A stretch of DNA of 24,000 nucleotides from the NCBI RefSeq assembly GCF_035918295.1, contig NZ_CP142149.1, positions 4,717,591-4,741,590 on the forward strand. The letters are read 5' to 3'. Positions 13,009-18,559 of this stretch are shown here, piece after piece. The notes beneath the pieces were generated by a model. The model saw nothing but the letters and a program-made list of their open reading frames with translations, made no database searches and was not told where the DNA came from. Source of the DNA: Amycolatopsis rhabdoformis (GTDB lineage Bacteria; Actinomycetota; Actinomycetes; Mycobacteriales; Pseudonocardiaceae). The first letter of the stretch is position 1, and each line of letters begins with the position of its first letter. The position numbers and the translations under genes were made by a program.

Positions 13009-13836
13009 TCAGGCCTGCGACACCCGGAACACCGGCCACCCGATCTCCGTGCGCCACGACCGCGGATCCGGGTCGTCGCGCGGACCGCGGACGTACGTCT
13101 CGTGCACCGGGCCGGCCACCGCCAGCGCGTGCTCCACGACCCAGCCACCCAGCCGCCCGTAGGTCACGTCGATGTCGTCGTGGTCCCCCGGGTGCACCGC
13201 CACGGCCAGCTCGACGGCCGGCAGCTGCTTCGGCGCCACGCGGCCGACCGTCGGTGCCCCGGGCACCGGCCGGTACACGAGCGCGCGGCCCCGCCCCAGC
13301 GTGAACAGCTCGTTGTCGTACAGCCCGCCCGGCGGGGTGAAGCCTTCCCGCCCGGCGACCGCGGTGTCCAATTCGGACATCGCCGCGTGGTACCAGCCGA
13401 GCACGTCGTCGAGGTCCACGGTGGCCTCGATCGCGGCCACGGTCCGCGCCGGCACCGAGCGCAGCTGCACCGCCAGCTCCTCGACGTCGGGCTTCAGCAG
13501 CTGCCGCAAGGAAACGACGGCCGCGCGCGTGCGGTCCAGCCGGTCTTCGAGCCGGCGCAGGTGCCCGGCGATGAGGTCGGCGCGGGCGCTCGGGTCGGCC
13601 GAGCCGAGGATGCGGTGCACCTCGGCCAGCGGCACGTCGAGCTCACGCAGCCGGTGGATCACCTGGGCGTCGGGGATCTGCTCGCGGGAGTAGTACCGGT
13701 AGCCCGTGGCGTCGTCGACCGAGGCGGGCGCCAGCAGGCCGGCCTCGTGGTAGCGGCGCAGCGTGCGCACGCTCAGCCGCGTGAGCCGGGCGAACTCGCC
13801 GATCGTGAGGCCGTTGCGCATGCCACCACTCTGCAT
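13009..13836 (-). CDS. MerR-family transcriptional regulator with a GyrI-like effector-binding C-terminal domain (BmrR-type architecture)
   Basis: N-terminal HTH reads LTIGEFARLTRLSVRTLRRYHEAGLLAPASVDDATGYRYYSREQIPDAQVIHRLRELDVPLAEV. A coiled linker and a GyrI-like domain of about 150 aa follow. Start is ATG 13836 or 13821. The longer track ORF runs through the operator region. Confidence 0.9.
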   Translation of the reverse strand: MQSGGMRNGLTIGEFARLTRLSVRTLRRYHEAGLLAPASVDDATGYRYYSREQIPDAQVIHRLRELDVPLAEVHRILGSADPSARADLIAGHLRRLEDRLDRTRAAVVSLRQLLKPDVEELAVQLRSVPARTVAAIEATVDLDDVLGWYHAAMSELDTAVAGREGFTPPGGLYDNELFTLGRGRALVYRPVPGAPTVGRVAPKQLPAVELAVAVHPGDHDDIDVTYGRLGGWVVEHALAVAGPVHETYVRGPRDDPDPRSWRTEIGWPVFRVSQA

Positions 13837-13852
13837 TCCCACACTGTGCACC

Positions 13853-13900
13853 CTCTCCCCGGGGGAGAGTCGAGCCGGGTTGACCCTCTCCCCGGGAGAG
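13853..13900. promoter_or_regulatory. Two copies of a CTCTCC(C)-N-GGAGAG palindrome in the merR/snoaL-like divergent region (putative MerR operators)
   Basis: CTCTCCCCGGGGGAGAG at 13853-13869 is a perfect 8+1+8 palindrome. CTCTCCCCGGGAGAG at 13886-13900 has 6-bp arms and a 3-nt centre. Each sits inside a 19-nt spacer between hexamers resembling -35 and -10 elements on opposite strands. Confidence 0.55.
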
Positions 13901-13948
13901 GCCCGACCGTGGTGGGGACCAGCCAGCCGACCACCGGGAGAGCCCCGC

Positions 13949-14281
13949 ATGAACACCGTCCTGCCCCAGCCGATCACCGAATACCTCGCCGCGCACCAGG
14001 TCCACGACGCCGGCCGCACGCTGCCGCTGTTCGCCCCGGACGCCGTCGTCGCCGACGACGGGCACACCTACCGCGGCCACGCCGAGATCCGCGGCTGGCT
14101 CGGCCGCGCGGCGAGCGAATTCACCTTCACCACCACCCTGCTGGACACCGAGCAGGTGGACGACGACCACTACGTGACCACCCACCACCTCGAAGGCGAT
14201 TTCCCCGGCGGCGCGGTCGATCTGCACTTCCGGTTCACCCTGCACGCCGGGCTGATCACGCACCTGGTCATCGAACCCTGA
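13949..14281 (+). CDS. SnoaL-like / NTF2-fold small protein (110 aa)
   Basis: ATG 13949 follows GGGAGAG. The sequence MNTVLPQPITEYLAAHQVHDAGRTLPLFAPDAVVADDGHTYRGHAEIRGWL ... resembles SnoaL-like polyketide-cyclase-fold proteins. The fold assignment is from memory and is moderate. Confidence 0.7.
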   Translation: MNTVLPQPITEYLAAHQVHDAGRTLPLFAPDAVVADDGHTYRGHAEIRGWLGRAASEFTFTTTLLDTEQVDDDHYVTTHHLEGDFPGGAVDLHFRFTLHAGLITHLVIEP

Positions 14282-14289
14282 CCCCGCGC

Positions 14290-14353
14290 GGAAAACCCCG
14301 CGACACCACCGGCGCCCGCCGGTTATGGTGGTTCTCGTGATCGCGGGGTTTCC
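14290..14353 (+). other. Long imperfect hairpin after the snoaL-like stop codon; it overlaps a hexamer pair resembling a sigma-70 promoter
   Basis: GGAAAACCCCGCGA (14290-14303) pairs with TCGCGGGGTTTCC (14341-14353). Inner pairing is ACCACC/GGTGGT, and GGC-GCCC-GCC forms the tip. GCGACA (14300-14305), an 18-nt spacer and TATGGT (14324-14329) lie inside it. Confidence 0.35.
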
Positions 14354-14367
14354 CCGGGACCACACCA

Positions 14368-14513
14368 GGTTCGGAGGTGTCCGGTGCGCAGGCAACGGTT
14401 ACTTCTTGGTGTCACAGGTTCGATTCCTGTCCGCCCCGGGCGACCGGGGCGCGGCTCTGCTCGCAGAGCTGTCGTGTCACCGTCGCCGATCTTTACTCGG
14501 GCGCGTCCGAACC
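14368..14513 (+). ncRNA. Y-RNA-like module 1 (YrlA-type, with a permuted tRNA-like domain)
   Basis: Outer stem 14368-14384 pairs with 14497-14513: GGTTCGGA/TCCGAACC, one G.G mismatch, then 8 more pairs including G.U. Internal loop TGCGCA (14385-14390) lies opposite GATCTTTAC (14488-14496). Next come helix GGC/GCC and ACGGT/ACCGT. The tRNA-like elements are T-arm ACAGG-TTCGATT-CCTGT (14414-14430), acceptor-like hairpin CGCCCCGG-GCGA-CCGGGGCG (14432-14451) and D-arm GCTC-TGCTCGCA-GAGC (14454-14469). Confidence 0.7.
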
Positions 14514-14526
14514 GCACTCGAACACT

Positions 14527-14563
14527 TCACGCGGACAACGGGTTTCTCCCGCTGTCCGCGTGA
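14527..14563 (+). other. Strong hairpin between Y-RNA-like modules 1 and 2
   Basis: TCACGCGGACA (14527-14537) pairs perfectly with TGTCCGCGTGA (14553-14563). The loop contains the CGGG-TTTCT-CCCG mini-hairpin. There is no T-tract. Confidence 0.4.
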
Positions 14564-14570
14564 CCCGGCA

Positions 14571-14638
14571 CTCCCGGTGCGCAGCCCCGCGGTTACTTCC
14601 TCGACCGAAATCACCACGGGGCGGACTTTTCTCGGGAG
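14571..14638 (+). ncRNA. Y-RNA-like module 2 (short, YrlB-like: same core but no tRNA-like domain)
   Basis: Outer stem is CTCCCG(G) 14571-14577 with (T)CGGGAG 14632-14638. Loop TGCGCA (14578-14583) lies opposite GGACTTTTC (14623-14631). Helix GCCCCG (14584-14589) pairs with CGGGGC (14617-14622). CGGT/ACCG (14590-14593 with 14604-14607) is capped by the 10-nt loop TACTTCCTCG. Confidence 0.55.
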
Positions 14639-14810
14639 CGACGATTTCAGGTGGGCCCGGTGCGCAGGCACCGGTTACTTCCACTGTTAATGGGCGGGTT
14701 GCGGGTTCGAATCCCGTCACCCCGGGAAACCGGGGTGTAGCTCAATTCGGCAGAGCAGCTAATGTACCGTGGCCGAATTTTTCTCGGGCCCACCTGAAAT
14801 CGTCGCTCCC
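14634..14810 (+). ncRNA. yrlA: Y-RNA-like module 3 (YrlA-type, with a near-canonical permuted tRNA-like domain)
   Basis: A perfect 26-bp outer stem pairs 14634-14659 (GGGAGCGACGATTTCAGGTGGGCCCG) with 14785-14810. Loop TGCGCA (14661-14666) lies opposite GAATTTTTC (14775-14783). Next come GGC/GCC and CGGT(T)AC/GTACCG with a bulged T. The tRNA-like elements are T-arm GCGGG-TTCGAAT-CCCGT (14701-14717), acceptor-like hairpin CACCCCGG-GAAA-CCGGGGTG (14718-14737), a TA dinucleotide, and D-arm GCTC-AATTCGGCA-GAGC (14740-14756). Confidence 0.85.
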
Positions 14811-14837
14811 TCCATTCCACTTCAGAGGGGGTCGACC

Positions 14838-16406
14838 ATGGCCAAGTTCAACCTGTTCCGCGCGCGCCCGGCGGCCCGCTCGCCGATCTCGAGCGAGGCC
14901 GTCGCGAGCGGGCGCACCCACGAAGGCGCGCCCGGCTACGCGCGCGACGTCTGGAGCGAGCTGTTCCTGCTCGCCGTGACCAACCTGGTCGGTGAGCACA
15001 CGTTCTACGAAAGCGCCACGCAGCGCGACACCCGCTACGCCGAGCTCGTGCGCGCCGCGACGCTCGCGGATCCCGAGTGGACCGCGCGGCTGCTCGCGTG
15101 GCTGCGCCGGGACGCGAACCTGCGCACCGCGGCGCTCGTCGGCGCGGCCGAGTTCGCCGCCGCCCGGCGCGAGGCGGGCCTCGAAGGCCTGTCGCGCCAG
15201 GTCGTGGCGAGCGTGCTGCAGCGGGCCGACGAGCCGGGTGAGCTGCTCGCCTACTGGACCGGCGTCCACGGCCGCACCGTGCCCAAGCCCGTGAAGCGCG
15301 GCATCGCCGACGCCGCCCAGCGGCTCTACACCGAGAGCTCCGCGCTCAAGTGGGACTCCGACGCGCGCGGGTTCCGGTTCGCCGACGTCCTCGGTCTCAC
15401 CCACCCCAACCCGCGCGAGCAGTGGCAGAGCGCGCTGTTCGAGCACCTGCTCGACGTCCGGTTCCACGCCGAGCGCGAGCTGCCTGCGGAACTGGGCACG
15501 CTGACGGCGCACCGTGCGCTGATGGCGTGGCCGGTGCAGCGGCGGCGCGAGCTGATGGCGTCGGGGACCGCGACCGCCGAGCTGCGCCGGGCCGGGATGA
15601 CGTGGGAGTCGCTCGCCGGGTGGCTGCAGGGGCCGCTGACCGCGGCCGCGTGGGAGGCGATGATCCCGTCGATGGGCTACATGGCGCTGCTGCGCAACCT
15701 GCGCAACTTCGACCAGGCCGGCGTTTCCGACGAGGTCGCGCAGGCCGTCGCGGCGCGACTGGCCGACCCGGAGCAGGTCGCGCGGTCGAAGCAGCTGCCG
15801 ATGCGGTTCCTCTCGGCCTACCGGGCGGCGCCGTCGCTGCGCTGGGCGTGGGCACTCGAGCAGGCGATCACACTCTCCCTCGCGAACGTGCCGCAGCTGC
15901 CGGGCCGCACGCTGGTCCTGGTGGACACCTCGTACTCGATGCACGCGCCCTTCTCGCGCGACGGCTCGCTGATGCGGTGGGACGCGGCCGCCGTGTTCGG
16001 GCTCGCGCTCGGCCTGCGGTGCGCGAAGGCCGACGTGGTGACCTTCGCGTTCGACTCGCAGGAGTTCCCGCTGCGACAGCGGGAATCGCTGCTGAAGGCA
16101 GTGGAGCGCTGGCGCGGCGGCGGGTACTTCCTCGGCGGTGGCACCGACACGGCCCGCGCGGTCCGGCGGCACCTGCGGGGTCACGACCGCGTGGTGATCC
16201 TCACCGACGAGCAGGCCACGGGCGGCAACGTCGGGCAGGCCGTGCCGGCGGACGTTCCGCTCTACACCTGGAACCTCGCCGGGTACGAGCGCGGCCACGC
16301 CCCCAGCGGCGGCCGCAACCGCCACACCTTCGGCGGCCTGACCGACCAGGCCTTCCGGATGATCCCGCTGCTGGAAGCGGGCCAGAACGCCGACTGGCCG
16401 TTCTGA
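14838..16406 (+). CDS. rsr: Ro60-related protein Rsr: TROVE domain plus C-terminal von Willebrand factor A domain
   Basis: ATG 14838 follows AGAGGGGG (14824-14831). The N-terminal TROVE-type sequence reads THEGAPGYARDVWSELFLLAVTNLVGEHTFYES. The C-terminal vWA domain has the MIDAS motif LVLVDTSYSM (DxSxS). The 522-aa length matches bacterial Rsr proteins. The gene lies next to Y-RNA-like elements. Confidence 0.93.
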   Translation: MAKFNLFRARPAARSPISSEAVASGRTHEGAPGYARDVWSELFLLAVTNLVGEHTFYESATQRDTRYAELVRAATLADPEWTARLLAWLRRDANLRTAALVGAAEFAAARREAGLEGLSRQVVASVLQRADEPGELLAYWTGVHGRTVPKPVKRGIADAAQRLYTESSALKWDSDARGFRFADVLGLTHPNPREQWQSALFEHLLDVRFHAERELPAELGTLTAHRALMAWPVQRRRELMASGTATAELRRAGMTWESLAGWLQGPLTAAAWEAMIPSMGYMALLRNLRNFDQAGVSDEVAQAVAARLADPEQVARSKQLPMRFLSAYRAAPSLRWAWALEQAITLSLANVPQLPGRTLVLVDTSYSMHAPFSRDGSLMRWDAAAVFGLALGLRCAKADVVTFAFDSQEFPLRQRESLLKAVERWRGGGYFLGGGTDTARAVRRHLRGHDRVVILTDEQATGGNVGQAVPADVPLYTWNLAGYERGHAPSGGRNRHTFGGLTDQAFRMIPLLEAGQNADWPF

Positions 16407-17079: not shown

Positions 17080-17556
17080 TCAGGCCCGGCCGTAGGCCTT
17101 GCGGGCCAGGCGCGCCGCCGAGGGCGCGTGGCTGTCGGCCTCGGCCCGGATGTCCGCGATCGTCTGCGCCGCCAGGGCTTTGCGCCACTGCAGCTCGGCG
17201 TGCTGCATCGCCGAATCGACCGCGCAGCGGCGGCGGAACGCGCTGCGCGGCGCCTCCTGGCCCATGCCCTGCTGCCGGATTTCGGTGCACTGGAACGCGA
17301 GATCGCGCCCCTCGATGGCGGCGACCACGTCCATGAGCGTGATGTCCTCGGGCCGGCGCGCGAGCACGAACCCGCCGCGCGCGCCCGGGAGCGACCGCAG
17401 CAGGCCCGCGCGGACGAGGGCCTGCAGCTGTTTGTTCAGGTACGCCACGGGAAGCTCGTAGCTGGCCGCCAGCGTCGCAGTGGATACCGGCTCGTCGTCG
17501 TCGAGCCACGCGAGCGACAGCAGGACATGGACGGACCACTCGACACCCTGGTTCAT
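17080..17556 (-). CDS. Rrf2-family transcriptional regulator
   Basis: The sequence MNQGVEWSVHVLLSLAWLDDDEPVSTATLAASYELPVAYLNKQLQALVRAGLLRSLPGARGGFVLARRPEDITLMDVVAAIEG is a typical Rrf2 winged helix. Only two Cys are visible (FQCTE, RRRCAV). The ATG 17556 start is preferred over the track start at 17580. Confidence 0.9.
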   Translation of the reverse strand: MNQGVEWSVHVLLSLAWLDDDEPVSTATLAASYELPVAYLNKQLQALVRAGLLRSLPGARGGFVLARRPEDITLMDVVAAIEGRDLAFQCTEIRQQGMGQEAPRSAFRRRCAVDSAMQHAELQWRKALAAQTIADIRAEADSHAPSAARLARKAYGRA

Positions 17557-17586
17557 CCGCACGGCCGCTATCCTAGACAATCTGGA

Positions 17587-17615
17587 CCTCGCAAGTCAAG
17601 GTTCGGCTTGCGAGG
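17587..17615. promoter_or_regulatory. Inverted repeat in the Rrf2 / ECF-sigma divergent region
   Basis: CCTCGCAAG (17587-17595) and CTTGCGAGG (17607-17615) form perfect 9-bp arms with an 11-nt centre. The repeat lies between the two divergent start codons. Confidence 0.4.
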
Positions 17616-17671
17616 CCCGGCGCACACCTGCGACCATCGGAATCCCCATGCAGTGCACGAGGAGCGGCGAA

Positions 17672-18559
17672 GTGACCGAAGTGGCCGGTGGCGGCTTGAC
17701 CGACGCGGTGACAGCGTTCGAAGGCGTGCGCCCGCGGTTGTTCGGCATCGCCTACCGCCTGCTGGGCACGGCGGCCGACGCCGAGGACGTGGTGCAGGAC
17801 ACGTGGATCCGCTGGCAGCGCACGGATCGCGCCGCGGTGCGCAACCCCGAGGCCTTCCTCGTGACCACCGCGAGCCGCCTGGCGCTCACCGCCGCGACCT
17901 CGGCCCGCGCGCGCCGCGAGCTCTACGTCGGCCCATGGCTGCCCGAACCGGTCCCGACCGCCGACGCCACCGGCGAAGGGGACCTCGAACGCGGTGAGGC
18001 GCTCGAGCTCGCCGTGCTCGTGCTGCTCGAACGGCTGACCCCGCAGGAGCGCGCGGTGTACGTGCTGAAGGAGGCCTTCGACTACCCGTACCGCGACATC
18101 GCCGGCTTCCTCGACATCACCGAGGACAACGCCCGCCAGCTCAACCACCGCGCCCGTGCCCACGTGACGCGCGAACGCGGCGCCCACGTAAGCCCGGCCG
18201 AGCGCGACCGCCTGCTACGGGCGTTCCTCGCCGCCGCGCGCGCCGGCGACCTCGAAGGCCTGCAGAGCCTGCTCGCCGAAAACGCCGTGGCCTACGCCGA
18301 CGGCGGCGGCGTGGTCACCGCCGCCCGCATCCCGGTGCAGGGGCGCGAGCGGGTGGCCCAGTACCTGGCGCGCACCGTGGCGATCTACGGGCAGAACACC
18401 ACGACCACGGTGGTGGCCGCCAACGGGCAGCACGTCGTGCTGGTCTCCCGCGACGGCGAGCCCCTGGCGGCGTGCTGGATCGAGGCGTCCCCCGAGGGCA
18501 TCGACGAGGTGTGTGTCCTGGTGAACCCGGCGAAACTCGCCCGGCTGGCCGCGGCGTGA
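17672..18559 (+). CDS. ECF RNA polymerase sigma factor with a C-terminal SnoaL-like extension (SigJ / ECF41-like)
   Basis: Region 2 reads RPRLFGIAYRLLGTAADAEDVVQDTWIRW. Region 4 reads LTPQERAVYVLKEAFDYPYRDIAGFLDITEDNARQLNHRAR. A C-terminal extension of about 100 aa follows. GTG 17672 follows GAGGAG; ATG 17648 is also in frame. Confidence 0.9.
   Translation: MTEVAGGGLTDAVTAFEGVRPRLFGIAYRLLGTAADAEDVVQDTWIRWQRTDRAAVRNPEAFLVTTASRLALTAATSARARRELYVGPWLPEPVPTADATGEGDLERGEALELAVLVLLERLTPQERAVYVLKEAFDYPYRDIAGFLDITEDNARQLNHRARAHVTRERGAHVSPAERDRLLRAFLAAARAGDLEGLQSLLAENAVAYADGGGVVTAARIPVQGRERVAQYLARTVAIYGQNTTTTVVAANGQHVVLVSRDGEPLAACWIEASPEGIDEVCVLVNPAKLARLAAA

What the first reader, a model, noticed from the sequence alone, without database searches (positions are those of the whole stretch)
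14282..16406. Three tandem Y-RNA-like modules directly upstream of an rsr (Ro60/TROVE-vWA) gene, two with circularly permuted tRNA-like domains
No plausible ORF explains the 556-nt gap before rsr. It contains tRNA hallmarks in the wrong order for a tRNA gene. A canonical T-arm (GGGTTCGAATCCC at 14703-14715; GGTTCGATTCC at 14417-14427) comes first. An 8-bp acceptor-like stem closed by a GNRA tetraloop (GAAA or GCGA) follows. Then come two spacer nucleotides and a D-arm (GCTC...GAGC). The whole unit is enclosed by a long stem formed from distal 5' and 3' sequences. That is the topology published for bacterial YrlA-type Y RNAs that bind Rsr, described for Salmonella, Deinococcus and Mycobacterium smegmatis. 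The two large copies support the fold by compensatory change. In the T-stem, A-T becomes G-C (14416:14428 versus 14703:14715). In the acceptor-like stem, G-C becomes A-T (14433:14450 versus 14719:14736). The outer stems differ completely in sequence, yet both pair (17 positions with one mismatch versus 26 perfect bp). No rtcB, rtcA or rtcR is present in the window, unlike the Salmonella rsr-yrlBA-rtcBA context. Standard protein and tRNA annotation would miss these RNAs. A three-module array in one leader is unusual.
Basis: partly seen in the sequence, partly recalled or inferred. Interest (0 to 1): 0.85.

Follow-up and report, generated by a model that had tools for sequence, protein, structure and literature searches.

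The report
Three Y RNAs upstream of rsr
The 556-base gap before the Ro60-like gene (rsr) of Amycolatopsis rhabdoformis encodes three tandem Y RNAs, one a full tRNA mimic, one an eroded copy and one a plain hairpin; this is a correct but ordinary example of a system described in 2014.

Summary
Window 14368-14810 (+) holds three tandem modules. Each has the same docking helix: closing stem, invariant GGUGCGCAG, inner stem, and UUAC. They lie directly upstream of a TROVE/Ro60 gene that is 100% identical to the A. rhabdoformis protein.

I built a covariance model from 62 orthologous modules of other actinomycetes, leaving the window out. It finds all three:
- Module C: 129 bits.
- Module A: 76 bits.
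- Module B: 30 bits.
- Best background hit: 17 bits.

In relatives the helices covary strongly (98.8% paired; 0/500 shuffles reach the score).

Module C is a full YrlA-type tRNA mimic. Module A keeps the T arm and acceptor-like hairpin, but its "D arm" is a plain hairpin and it has no V arm. Module B is a minimal hairpin Y RNA.

The claim that a three-module array is unusual fails. Of 81 rsr loci, 24 have three modules and five have five or six. The same order (T-arm module, plain module, full module) recurs in Lentzea and Streptomyces.

YrlA plus YrlB upstream of rsr, cut from one precursor, was shown in M. smegmatis (Chen 2014). This is therefore a new member of a known kind. Rfam's YrlA threshold misses it, and missed every actinomycete locus I tested.

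The parts
14300..14329 (+). Candidate promoter of the Y RNA-rsr transcript: -35-like GCGACA (14300-14305), 18-nt spacer, -10-like TATGGT (14324-14329).
   Evidence: Inferred. This is the conserved block in the alignment of five Amycolatopsis loci, with GCGAC and T..GT invariant; three relatives read TACAGT. TANNNT hexamers lie 12-14 nt upstream of the first module in Nocardia and Streptomyces loci (sequences). The strict sigma-70 consensus scan found nothing, so this is weak.
14368..14513 (+). Module A (about 146 nt): a Y RNA with an eroded tRNA-like domain. Parts: outer/closing stem 14368-14384 with 14497-14513; Rsr motif GGUGCGCAG 14383-14391; inner stem 14391-14399 with 14479-14487; UUAC 14399-14402.
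   Evidence: Independent model R1 gives 76.3 bits, E=3.7e-15, at 14379-14502. Rfam YrlA gives 16.8 bits. MFE z = -4.77. Orthologous A modules occur in L002, Lentzea and other Amycolatopsis.
14414..14430 (+). Module A T arm: ACAGG-UUCGAUU-CCUGU.
   Evidence: It aligns to the T arm of R1.
14432..14451 (+). Module A acceptor-like stem-loop: 8 bp closed by a GCGA tetraloop.
   Evidence: Absent in L001, L003 and L028; present in L002.
14453..14470 (+). Module A D-position hairpin: GGCUCUG-CUCG-CAGAGCU, 7 bp with a 4-nt loop. It is not a D loop.
   Evidence: It lacks GG and A14, and is preceded by CG instead of UA (read directly from the sequence and from the R1 alignment). In L002 it is GCCCUG-GCGA-CAGGGC.
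14527..14563 (+). Spacer hairpin between modules A and B: 16-nt arms, 94% complementary, 5-nt loop, no U tract. Role unknown.
   Evidence: (I2). It is not conserved in L002.
14572..14637 (+). Module B (66 nt): a minimal Y RNA. Parts: closing stem 14572-14577 with 14632-14637; GGUGCGCAG 14576-14584; inner stem 14584-14589 with 14617-14622; GGU/ACC and UUC/GAA pairs with a 7-nt loop.
   Evidence: R1 gives 30.1 bits, E=4.2e-5, with the tRNA-like part skipped. MFE. The closing and inner stems of 32 B-type modules covary: score 0.264 versus 0.118 shuffled, 0/500 shuffles reach it.
14634..14810 (+). Module C (177 nt): a full YrlA-type Y RNA. Parts: outer plus closing stem 14634-14660 with 14784-14810; GGUGCGCAG 14659-14667; inner stem 14667-14678 with 14764-14774; V hairpin 14681-14693.
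   Evidence: R1 gives 129 bits, E=1.2e-26. Rfam YrlA gives 51.8 bits, E=1e-10, over the full model. 26-bp perfect inverted repeat. MFE z = -8.75. Three compensatory changes in the outer stem versus L003. The outer stem is conserved in structure but not in sequence across Pseudonocardiaceae.
14701..14717 (+). Module C T arm: GCGGG-UUCGAAU-CCCGU.
   Evidence: The T stem covaries in relatives (helix 3).
14718..14737 (+). Module C acceptor-like stem: 8 bp closed by a GAAA tetraloop.
   Evidence: Six of seven pairs covary in relatives (helix 4).
14738..14756 (+). Module C: UA spacer plus D arm GCUC-AAUUCGGCA-GAGC.
   Evidence: GUAGCUCA and AGAGC are invariant in 62 relatives.
14824..14831 (+). Shine-Dalgarno-like AGAGGGGG, 6 nt before the rsr ATG.
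   Evidence: Read from the sequence. Conserved in five loci.
14838..16406 (+). rsr: Ro60/TROVE protein, 522 aa.
   Evidence: Pfam TROVE 1.2e-16. 100% identical to the A. rhabdoformis TROVE protein, with more than 7000 homologues. PDB TROVE chains 9kop and 9l5y match at E=3e-31.

Best explanation
The rsr leader of Amycolatopsis rhabdoformis encodes three Y RNAs of the actinomycete YrlA/YrlB family.

Shown here:
- The three modules lie on the rsr strand with no terminator-like site between them and rsr.
- Each has the same helix: a closing stem (UCCCGG with UCGGGA), an asymmetric internal loop whose 5' side is the invariant GGUGCG(C/A)AG, and an inner stem ending in UUAC.
- That helix and its pairing are conserved with compensatory changes upstream of rsr in 80 other actinomycete genomes.

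Inferred from published Ro60-Y RNA work (X. laevis, D. radiodurans, S. Typhimurium, M. smegmatis):
- The helix is the Rsr docking site. GGUGCGC resembles the vertebrate GGUCCGA contacted by Ro60.
- The distal part of each module is the effector end.

The three effector ends differ.
- Module C carries a complete permuted tRNA mimic: V hairpin, T arm, acceptor-like stem, UA, and a D arm with GG.
- Module A carries a T arm plus two plain hairpins. It looks like an eroded paralogue of C.
- Module B carries only a short hairpin.

Inferred mechanism: one transcript, probably from a promoter near 14300-14329, runs through A, B and C into rsr. Endonucleolytic processing releases the RNAs. The 26-bp stem of C is a plausible RNase III site. 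This would match M. smegmatis, where YrlA and YrlB are cut from one precursor. Rsr then binds and stabilises the RNAs. They would gate its cavity or tether it to partners such as PNPase.
For: - Rfam YrlA matches 14671-14779 over the full model at E=1e-10.
- Model R1, built from 62 orthologous modules without the window, gives 129, 76.3 and 30.1 bits for C, A and B. The next hit in 24 kb is 17 bits.
- Covariation in relatives: 18 of 29 pairs change on both sides; 98.8% of cells are paired versus 80.3% shuffled; score 0.452 versus 0.127 (0/500); slid controls reach at most 0.073.
- The stems of B-type modules covary as well.
- All 178 R1 hits in the 80 loci are on the rsr strand. All but four (two of them weak partial matches inside tRNA arrays) lie within about 800 nt upstream of rsr; the other two lie about 1.6-1.7 kb upstream in L044. 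Five Nocardia loci also have a full module about 1.7 kb upstream.
- The 5' motif occurs 190 times in 162 kb upstream of rsr, against 2 times in 1.08 Mb elsewhere.
- The outer stem of C has three compensatory changes versus L003. It is structurally conserved with different sequences.
- The scan finds no terminator-like site in 14150-14900.
- Published precedent (PMC4201824): M. smegmatis YrlA (about 147 nt) and YrlB are both upstream of rsr, Rsr-bound and cut from one precursor. The complement of the M. smegmatis YrlA-5' probe (UUACCACUUCUAAUGGAAUGGUC) shares CACUUCUAAUGGA with the Nocardia modules in alignment A2.
Against: - No expression, processing or binding data exist for this organism.
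- Rfam's curated threshold is not reached.
- The 5' motif does not literally fit the published GNCGAAN0-1G.
- Module B scores only 30 bits.
- Module A's tRNA-like part lacks the nucleotides needed for the D-loop/T-loop elbow.
- The promoter assignment is weak (one search found none by strict consensus).
- The closing stem of B and the far end of C's outer stem compete for GGGA 14634-14637, so not all drawn pairs can exist at once.
Confidence: 0.85

Rival explanations
1. The modules act mainly in cis. They would be Rsr-binding sites in the rsr 5' UTR that let Rsr autoregulate the stability or translation of its own mRNA, in the manner of ribosomal-protein leaders, rather than being released as free Y RNAs.
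For: The modules sit in the leader, 28 nt from the ATG, with no terminator between them and rsr. The arrangement immediately upstream of rsr is conserved.
Against: In M. smegmatis the homologous RNAs accumulate as discrete Rsr-bound species cut from the precursor (PMC4201824). In Salmonella YrlA lies 3' of rsr, so leader position is not required. In Nocardia some full modules lie about 1.7 kb upstream. The two roles are not mutually exclusive.
Confidence: 0.1
2. Only module C is a functional Y RNA. Modules A and B would be decaying duplicates without function.
For: Module A's D-position hairpin and missing V arm show erosion. The acceptor-like and D-position hairpins of A are absent in L001, L003 and L028, and B is absent in L003 and L028. 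14 of 81 loci have one module only.
Against: The docking helices of A-type and B-type modules keep the invariant motif and covary over Amycolatopsis, Lentzea, Nocardia and Streptomyces. The order of T-arm module, plain module and full module recurs across families. M. smegmatis YrlB, which has a T arm only, is bound by Rsr (PMC4201824).
Confidence: 0.08
3. The T arm and D arm signals are remnants of tandem tRNA genes or tRNA pseudogenes, unrelated to rsr.
For: There are canonical T loops and a GCUC/GAGC D stem. Rfam tRNA weakly hits two homologous modules in other loci (29 bits).
Against: ARAGORN finds no tRNA. The order is T arm, tetraloop-closed stem, then D arm, within one enclosing helix. 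There is no anticodon arm. The whole unit, including the enclosing helix, is conserved and covaries next to rsr in 80 genomes.
Confidence: 0.01

Closest known systems
Mycobacterium smegmatis YrlA and YrlB (Chen et al. 2014, RNA 20:1715; PMC4201824)
   Same: Both are actinomycete loci without rtc genes. The RNAs are upstream of rsr on the same strand and come from one precursor. YrlA is about 147 nt with a permuted T arm, acceptor-like stem and D arm. A second, shorter Y RNA keeps only a T arm. The V-hairpin sequence is shared with the Nocardia homologues of module C (versus the published probe).
   Different: Here there are three modules, not two. The promoter-proximal one is an intermediate form (T arm plus two plain hairpins), and the middle one has no tRNA feature at all. 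The rsr-proximal YrlA is enclosed by an extra stem of about 21 bp. The acceptor-like stem is 8 bp closed by GAAA, against the 7-bp RNase P-cleaved stem of M. smegmatis. Cleavage and CCA addition are untested here.
Salmonella Typhimurium YrlA (Rfam RF02553; crystal structure 6CU1, bioRxiv 10.1101/312249)
   Same: Same topology and the same conserved nucleotides in the T arm, the UA-GCUC...GAGC D arm and YUAY. Module C aligns to the full Rfam model at E=1e-10.
   Different: The score is below Rfam's gathering cut-off (51.8 versus 69). The docking motif is GGUGCGCAG rather than GGCGAAUG. The RNA lies 5' of rsr, not in an rsr-yrlBA-rtcBA operon under RtcR. It has a much longer enclosing stem.
Deinococcus radiodurans Yrn1/Yrn2 and metazoan Y RNAs
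   Same: The 5' and 3' ends pair to form the Ro60-binding helix. GGUGCGC matches vertebrate GGUCCGA at 5 of 7 positions. Several Y RNAs are encoded next to rsr.
   Different: The effector domain has a different architecture. Yrn1 has a T arm but a differently oriented, incomplete tRNA likeness. Metazoan Y RNAs have none.

Membership tests
YrlA (Y RNA-like A; Chen 2014 / Rfam RF02553) | Encoded within 4 kb of the Ro60 orthologue, on the same strand | tested here: met
   Modules lie at 14368-14810 (+) and rsr at 14838-16406 (+).
YrlA (Y RNA-like A; Chen 2014 / Rfam RF02553) | Reaches the Rfam RF02553 gathering score (69 bits) | tested here: not met
   Module C scores 51.8 bits (E=1e-10, full-length), module A 16.8 bits, and module B gives no hit. 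None of 19 other actinomycete rsr loci reaches it either, so the cut-off looks too strict for this clade rather than informative.
YrlA (Y RNA-like A; Chen 2014 / Rfam RF02553) | T stem-loop with a tRNA-like GGUUCGAAUCC | tested here: met
   Module C 14701-14717 and module A 14414-14430. Module B has none.
YrlA (Y RNA-like A; Chen 2014 / Rfam RF02553) | D stem-loop: UA, then GCUC, a loop with A..GG..A, then GAGC | tested here: met
   Met for module C only (UA GCUC AAUUCGGCA GAGC, 14738-14756). Module A is CG GCUC UGCUCGCA GAGC, which folds as a 7-bp hairpin with a 4-nt loop and lacks GG, so A does not meet it.
YrlA (Y RNA-like A; Chen 2014 / Rfam RF02553) | [quoted passage not shown] | tested here: met
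   8-bp stems at 14718-14737 and 14432-14451. Six of seven pairs covary in relatives (helix 4).
YrlA (Y RNA-like A; Chen 2014 / Rfam RF02553) | GNCGAAN0-1G motif near the 5' end (putative Ro60 contact) | tested here: inconclusive
   All three modules have GGUGCGCAG. This does not literally match GNCGAA. GGUGCG..AG is invariant in 62 relatives, and some read GGUGCGAAG. It sits at the same distance from YUAY as the motif does in the Rfam consensus.
YrlA (Y RNA-like A; Chen 2014 / Rfam RF02553) | Conserved YUAY before the V region | tested here: met
   UUAC at 14399-14402, 14593-14596 and 14675-14678. UACUU is invariant in A2, and A3 keeps it apart from the A, which is nearly invariant.
Y RNA (functional definition) | Stable small RNA bound by Ro60/Rsr in vivo | not testable with these tools
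   Needs northern or RACE data and Rsr immunoprecipitation in A. rhabdoformis.
Y RNA (functional definition) | 5' and 3' ends pair into a conserved helix carrying the Ro-binding motif | tested here: met
   Closing and inner stems are 96.5-99.7% paired, with compensatory changes, in 62 full modules. In 32 short modules the closing stem is 95.3% and the inner stem 79.3% paired, again with compensatory changes.
tRNA gene | Cloverleaf with anticodon arm and 5'/3' acceptor ends | tested here: not met
   ARAGORN finds 0 genes in the window. Rfam tRNA gives no hit. The order of arms is permuted.

The most novel reading that the evidence does not exclude
Actinomycete rsr leaders may be polycistronic cassettes of 2 to 6 Y RNAs. 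All share one docking helix (UCCCGG-GUGCG(C/A)AG ... GAUCUCGGGA) but carry graded effector ends: full tRNA mimic, T arm only, or plain hairpin. That would let one Rsr ring be tethered to different partners. The conserved abutting and overlap of one module's closing strand with the next module's long stem (CUCGGGAGC) could act as a built-in processing or folding switch. This wider family, defined by the docking helix rather than by the tRNA mimic, is invisible to Rfam and only partly covered by the 2014 survey.
Probability: 0.3. Interest if true: 0.5.

Novelty: new member of a known kind. Interest (0 to 1): 0.3.

Why it matters
The result annotates three unrecorded small RNAs in A. rhabdoformis. 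It also shows that Rfam's YrlA threshold misses the actinomycete branch: 0 of 19 loci reached it. The comparison gives a usable definition of the actinomycete Rsr-docking helix. It shows that arrays of Y RNAs with different effector ends are the rule in this phylum. That could help the search for the still-unknown partner of the tRNA-like domain, for instance by comparing what binds C-type, A-type and B-type modules. It does not open a new class of system.

Tried and rejected
- Rfam at gathering thresholds gave no hit in the window and no YrlA hit in 19 related loci. Only the E-value mode was informative.
- The other sub-threshold Rfam matches (Dictyoglomi-1, sX12, Thr_leader, cyano_tmRNA, HgcF, P17; E of 0.15 or higher) are partial hairpin matches and were dismissed.
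- The strict sigma-70 promoter and intrinsic-terminator scan found nothing. The promoter proposal therefore rests on conservation only.
- The 14290-14354 hairpin (I4) was considered as a fourth module or as a terminator of the SnoaL gene. Its 3' arm is not conserved in L001, L003 or L028, and R1 gives only 5.9 bits there. I rejected it as a module. Its conserved 5' arm coincides with the -35-like box.
- Small ORFs in the gap are the usual high-GC artefacts, overlap the conserved helices, and were not pursued.
- The supplementary tables of Chen 2014 are not held. I could not check whether any Amycolatopsis was already listed.
- One literature search was badly posed and gave nothing useful.
Full report
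**1. What is in the sequence**

The window comes from Amycolatopsis rhabdoformis or a near-identical strain. The 522-aa product of 14838-16406 (+) is 100% identical to that species' TROVE-domain protein. It matches Pfam TROVE at 1.2e-16 and solved TROVE proteins at 3e-31.

Upstream lies a SnoaL_2 ORF ending at 14281. The gap 14282-14837 is 556 nt. Its G+C content drops to 0.63-0.67, against 0.72-0.77 in the flanking genes. ARAGORN finds no tRNA, and Rfam at gathering thresholds finds nothing in the whole window.

- both T arms;
- both 8-bp tetraloop-closed stems;
- the GCTC...GAGC elements;
- the 26-bp perfect outer stem;
- the 17-position outer stem with one mismatch;
- the two compensatory differences between the large copies.

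The composite motif GGTGCGCAG-N5-6-GGTTACTTC occurs three times in the window, all in the gap, against 0.00 expected.

**2. Identity**

In E-value mode, Rfam's YrlA model (RF02553) aligns end to end with 14671-14779 at 51.8 bits, E=1e-10. It aligns weakly with 14383-14495 (16.8 bits, E=1.4). Both are below the gathering score of 69.

For an independent test I fetched 80 actinomycete rsr loci. I extracted 62 distinct full modules from them, leaving the window out, and built covariance model R1. Run over the whole window with filters off, R1 gives:

| Region | Module | Bits | E-value |
|---|---|---|---|
| 14655-14789 | C | 129 | 1.2e-26 |
| 14379-14502 | A | 76.3 | 3.7e-15 |
| 14572-14637 | B | 30.1 | 4.2e-5 |
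| best background hit | none | 17 | 0.029 |

All three hits are on the rsr strand.

**3. Structure is supported by evolution**

In the 62 relatives, RNAalifold predicts 29 pairs, and 18 of them keep pairing through changes on both sides.
- 98.8% of cells are paired, against 80.3% after shuffling.
- The covariation score is 0.452 against 0.127, and 0 of 500 shuffles reach it.
- Sliding the partners by 1-3 columns drops the score to 0.073 or less.

The closing stem, inner stem, T stem and acceptor-like stem all covary. The D stem is invariant, as Chen et al. reported for YrlA.

For 32 short, B-type modules, the closing and inner stems also covary (0.264 against 0.118, 0 of 500).

The extra outer stem of the rsr-proximal module differs from L003 by three compensatory double changes. 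It is kept as a helix of about 21 bp with quite different sequences across Pseudonocardiaceae.

**4. Anatomy of the three modules** (coordinates)

All three share a closing stem (UCCCGG with UCGGGA, including a conserved G-U pair). This is followed by an internal loop whose 5' side is GGUGCGCAG, an inner stem, and UUAC.

- **Module C (14634-14810)** adds a V hairpin, a T arm, an 8-bp acceptor-like stem closed by GAAA, UA, and a D arm with AAUUCGGCA. This is the full permuted tRNA mimic of YrlA.
- **Module A (14368-14513)** has the T arm and an 8-bp stem closed by GCGA, but no V hairpin. Its third element, GGCUCUG-CUCG-CAGAGCU, is a plain hairpin preceded by CG. It lacks the A14 and G18G19 equivalents needed for the tRNA elbow. 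In L002 this hairpin is GCCCUG-GCGA-CAGGGC. In Lentzea it is GCUCAC-CCCG-GUGAGC. In L020 it is missing, and in L001, L003 and L028 both extra hairpins are missing. In Streptomyces the promoter-proximal module is a full YrlA of 118-129 bits. Module A therefore looks like an eroding paralogue of a full YrlA. Its docking helix and T arm are under selection, but its tRNA-like fold is not.
- **Module B (14572-14637)** is a minimal Y RNA with a short terminal hairpin.

**5. Surroundings**

The scan finds no terminator-like site between the modules and rsr. A conserved block at 14300-14329 (GCGACA, 18 nt, TATGGT; TACAGT in three relatives) is a plausible promoter. In Nocardia and Streptomyces a TANNNT hexamer sits 12-14 nt before the first module. 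The strict consensus scan did not call it, so this step is inferred.

Pfam scans of the rsr product and 24 further ORFs in the window show:
- LuxR-type regulators;
- a GMC oxidoreductase;
- a MerR/GyrI-like regulator;
- the SnoaL_2 protein upstream of the array, plus an ECF sigma factor with a SnoaL domain;
- a GntR-aminotransferase;
- an epimerase.

No RtcB, RtcA or RtcR domain appears.

**6. Comparison with what is known**

Chen et al. 2014 (PMC4201824) reported 355 YrlA candidates near rsr in 254 bacteria and 22 phages, including the actinomycetes Gordonia, Streptosporangium and M. smegmatis. In M. smegmatis they showed experimentally that YrlA (about 147 nt) and a shorter YrlB with a T arm lie upstream of rsr. 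Both are cut from one precursor and are bound by Rsr, and the locus is not under RtcR.

The complement of their YrlA-5' probe shares CACUUCUAAUGGA with the Nocardia modules of alignment A2. This ties the present family to the validated RNA.

The mechanism I propose is therefore borrowed from that work and from the Ro60-Y RNA structures. Rsr binds the 5' strand of the docking helix. The distal domain is the effector end. Nothing about expression or binding is shown for this organism.

**7. Is the three-module array unusual?**

No. A motif tally finds 190 docking motifs in 162 kb upstream of rsr, against 2 in 1.08 Mb elsewhere. The numbers of modules per locus are:

| Modules per locus | Loci |
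|---|---|
| 1 | 14 |
| 2 | 38 |
| 3 | 24 |
| 5 | 2 |
| 6 | 3 |

R1 confirms five or six modules in five Nocardia species and four in Thermomonospora echinospora. The same order as here (T-arm module, plain module, full YrlA) is found in L002, L012, L018, seven Lentzea loci and several Streptomyces loci. Two full modules per locus occur in Nocardia and Streptomyces.

**8. Verdict**

Only module C is a full tRNA mimic, and the array is typical for the phylum.

This is a new member of a known kind. Rfam's gathering score misses this locus and all 19 other actinomycete loci tested.

Interest is modest. The most novel defensible reading is that actinomycete rsr leaders are cassettes of Y RNAs with one docking helix and graded effector ends.

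Noticed in passing
L030 1-5222 and L031 1-5223 (Amycolatopsis saalfeldensis; A. ponsaeliensis, second rsr copy); also L080 4669-5210: A divergent rsr paralogue (63-64% identity) with a single YrlA is embedded in an array of 25-26 tRNA genes: 21-22 upstream and 4 downstream, all on the same strand. A. ponsaeliensis also has the ordinary rsr locus (L004). This recalls mycobacteriophage Ro60/YrlA/tRNA clusters and the tRNA array units of actinomycetes.
   Followed up: partly
window 14632-14639; the same junction in most Pseudonocardiaceae loci and some Streptomyces loci: The 3' closing strand of module B (UCGGGA) runs straight into, and shares GGGA with, the 5' strand of module C's outer stem (GGGAGC...GCUCCC). 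The junction CUCGGGAGC is conserved although the rest of the outer stem varies. The two helices either abut or compete for 4 bp. This could be a processing or folding signal.
   Followed up: partly
window 14527-14563: A near-perfect hairpin with 16-nt arms lies between modules A and B. It has no U tract and is not conserved in L002. Its role (spacer, processing site or attenuator) is unknown.
   Followed up: no
L032, L035, L036 (six modules); L033, L034 (five modules); positions about -1780 to -120 relative to rsr: Nocardia species carry five or six docking-helix modules upstream of rsr. These include a full YrlA about 1.7 kb upstream whose R1 match spans 176-178 nt, so it carries an insertion (131 nt in L034).
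   Followed up: partly
L074 2709-2863 and L058 2812-2879: Rfam's tRNA model just passes its gathering score (29.4 and 29.1 versus 29) on YrlA modules of two loci. Automatic pipelines could mis-annotate these Y RNAs as odd tRNAs.
   Followed up: no
window 13009-14067 (-) and 13763-14281 (+); 17480-18559 (+): rsr is flanked by a MerR/GyrI-like regulator, a SnoaL_2 protein directly upstream of the array (conserved in L001, L003 and L028), and an ECF-type sigma factor fused to a SnoaL domain downstream. There may be a stress-response neighbourhood here.
   Followed up: no
L001 2853-2931: In Amycolatopsis sp. NPDC023774, whose Rsr is 85% identical, only one short T-arm-only module is detected within 3 kb upstream of rsr, and no full YrlA. 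Either the full YrlA lies elsewhere or this species does without it.
   Followed up: no
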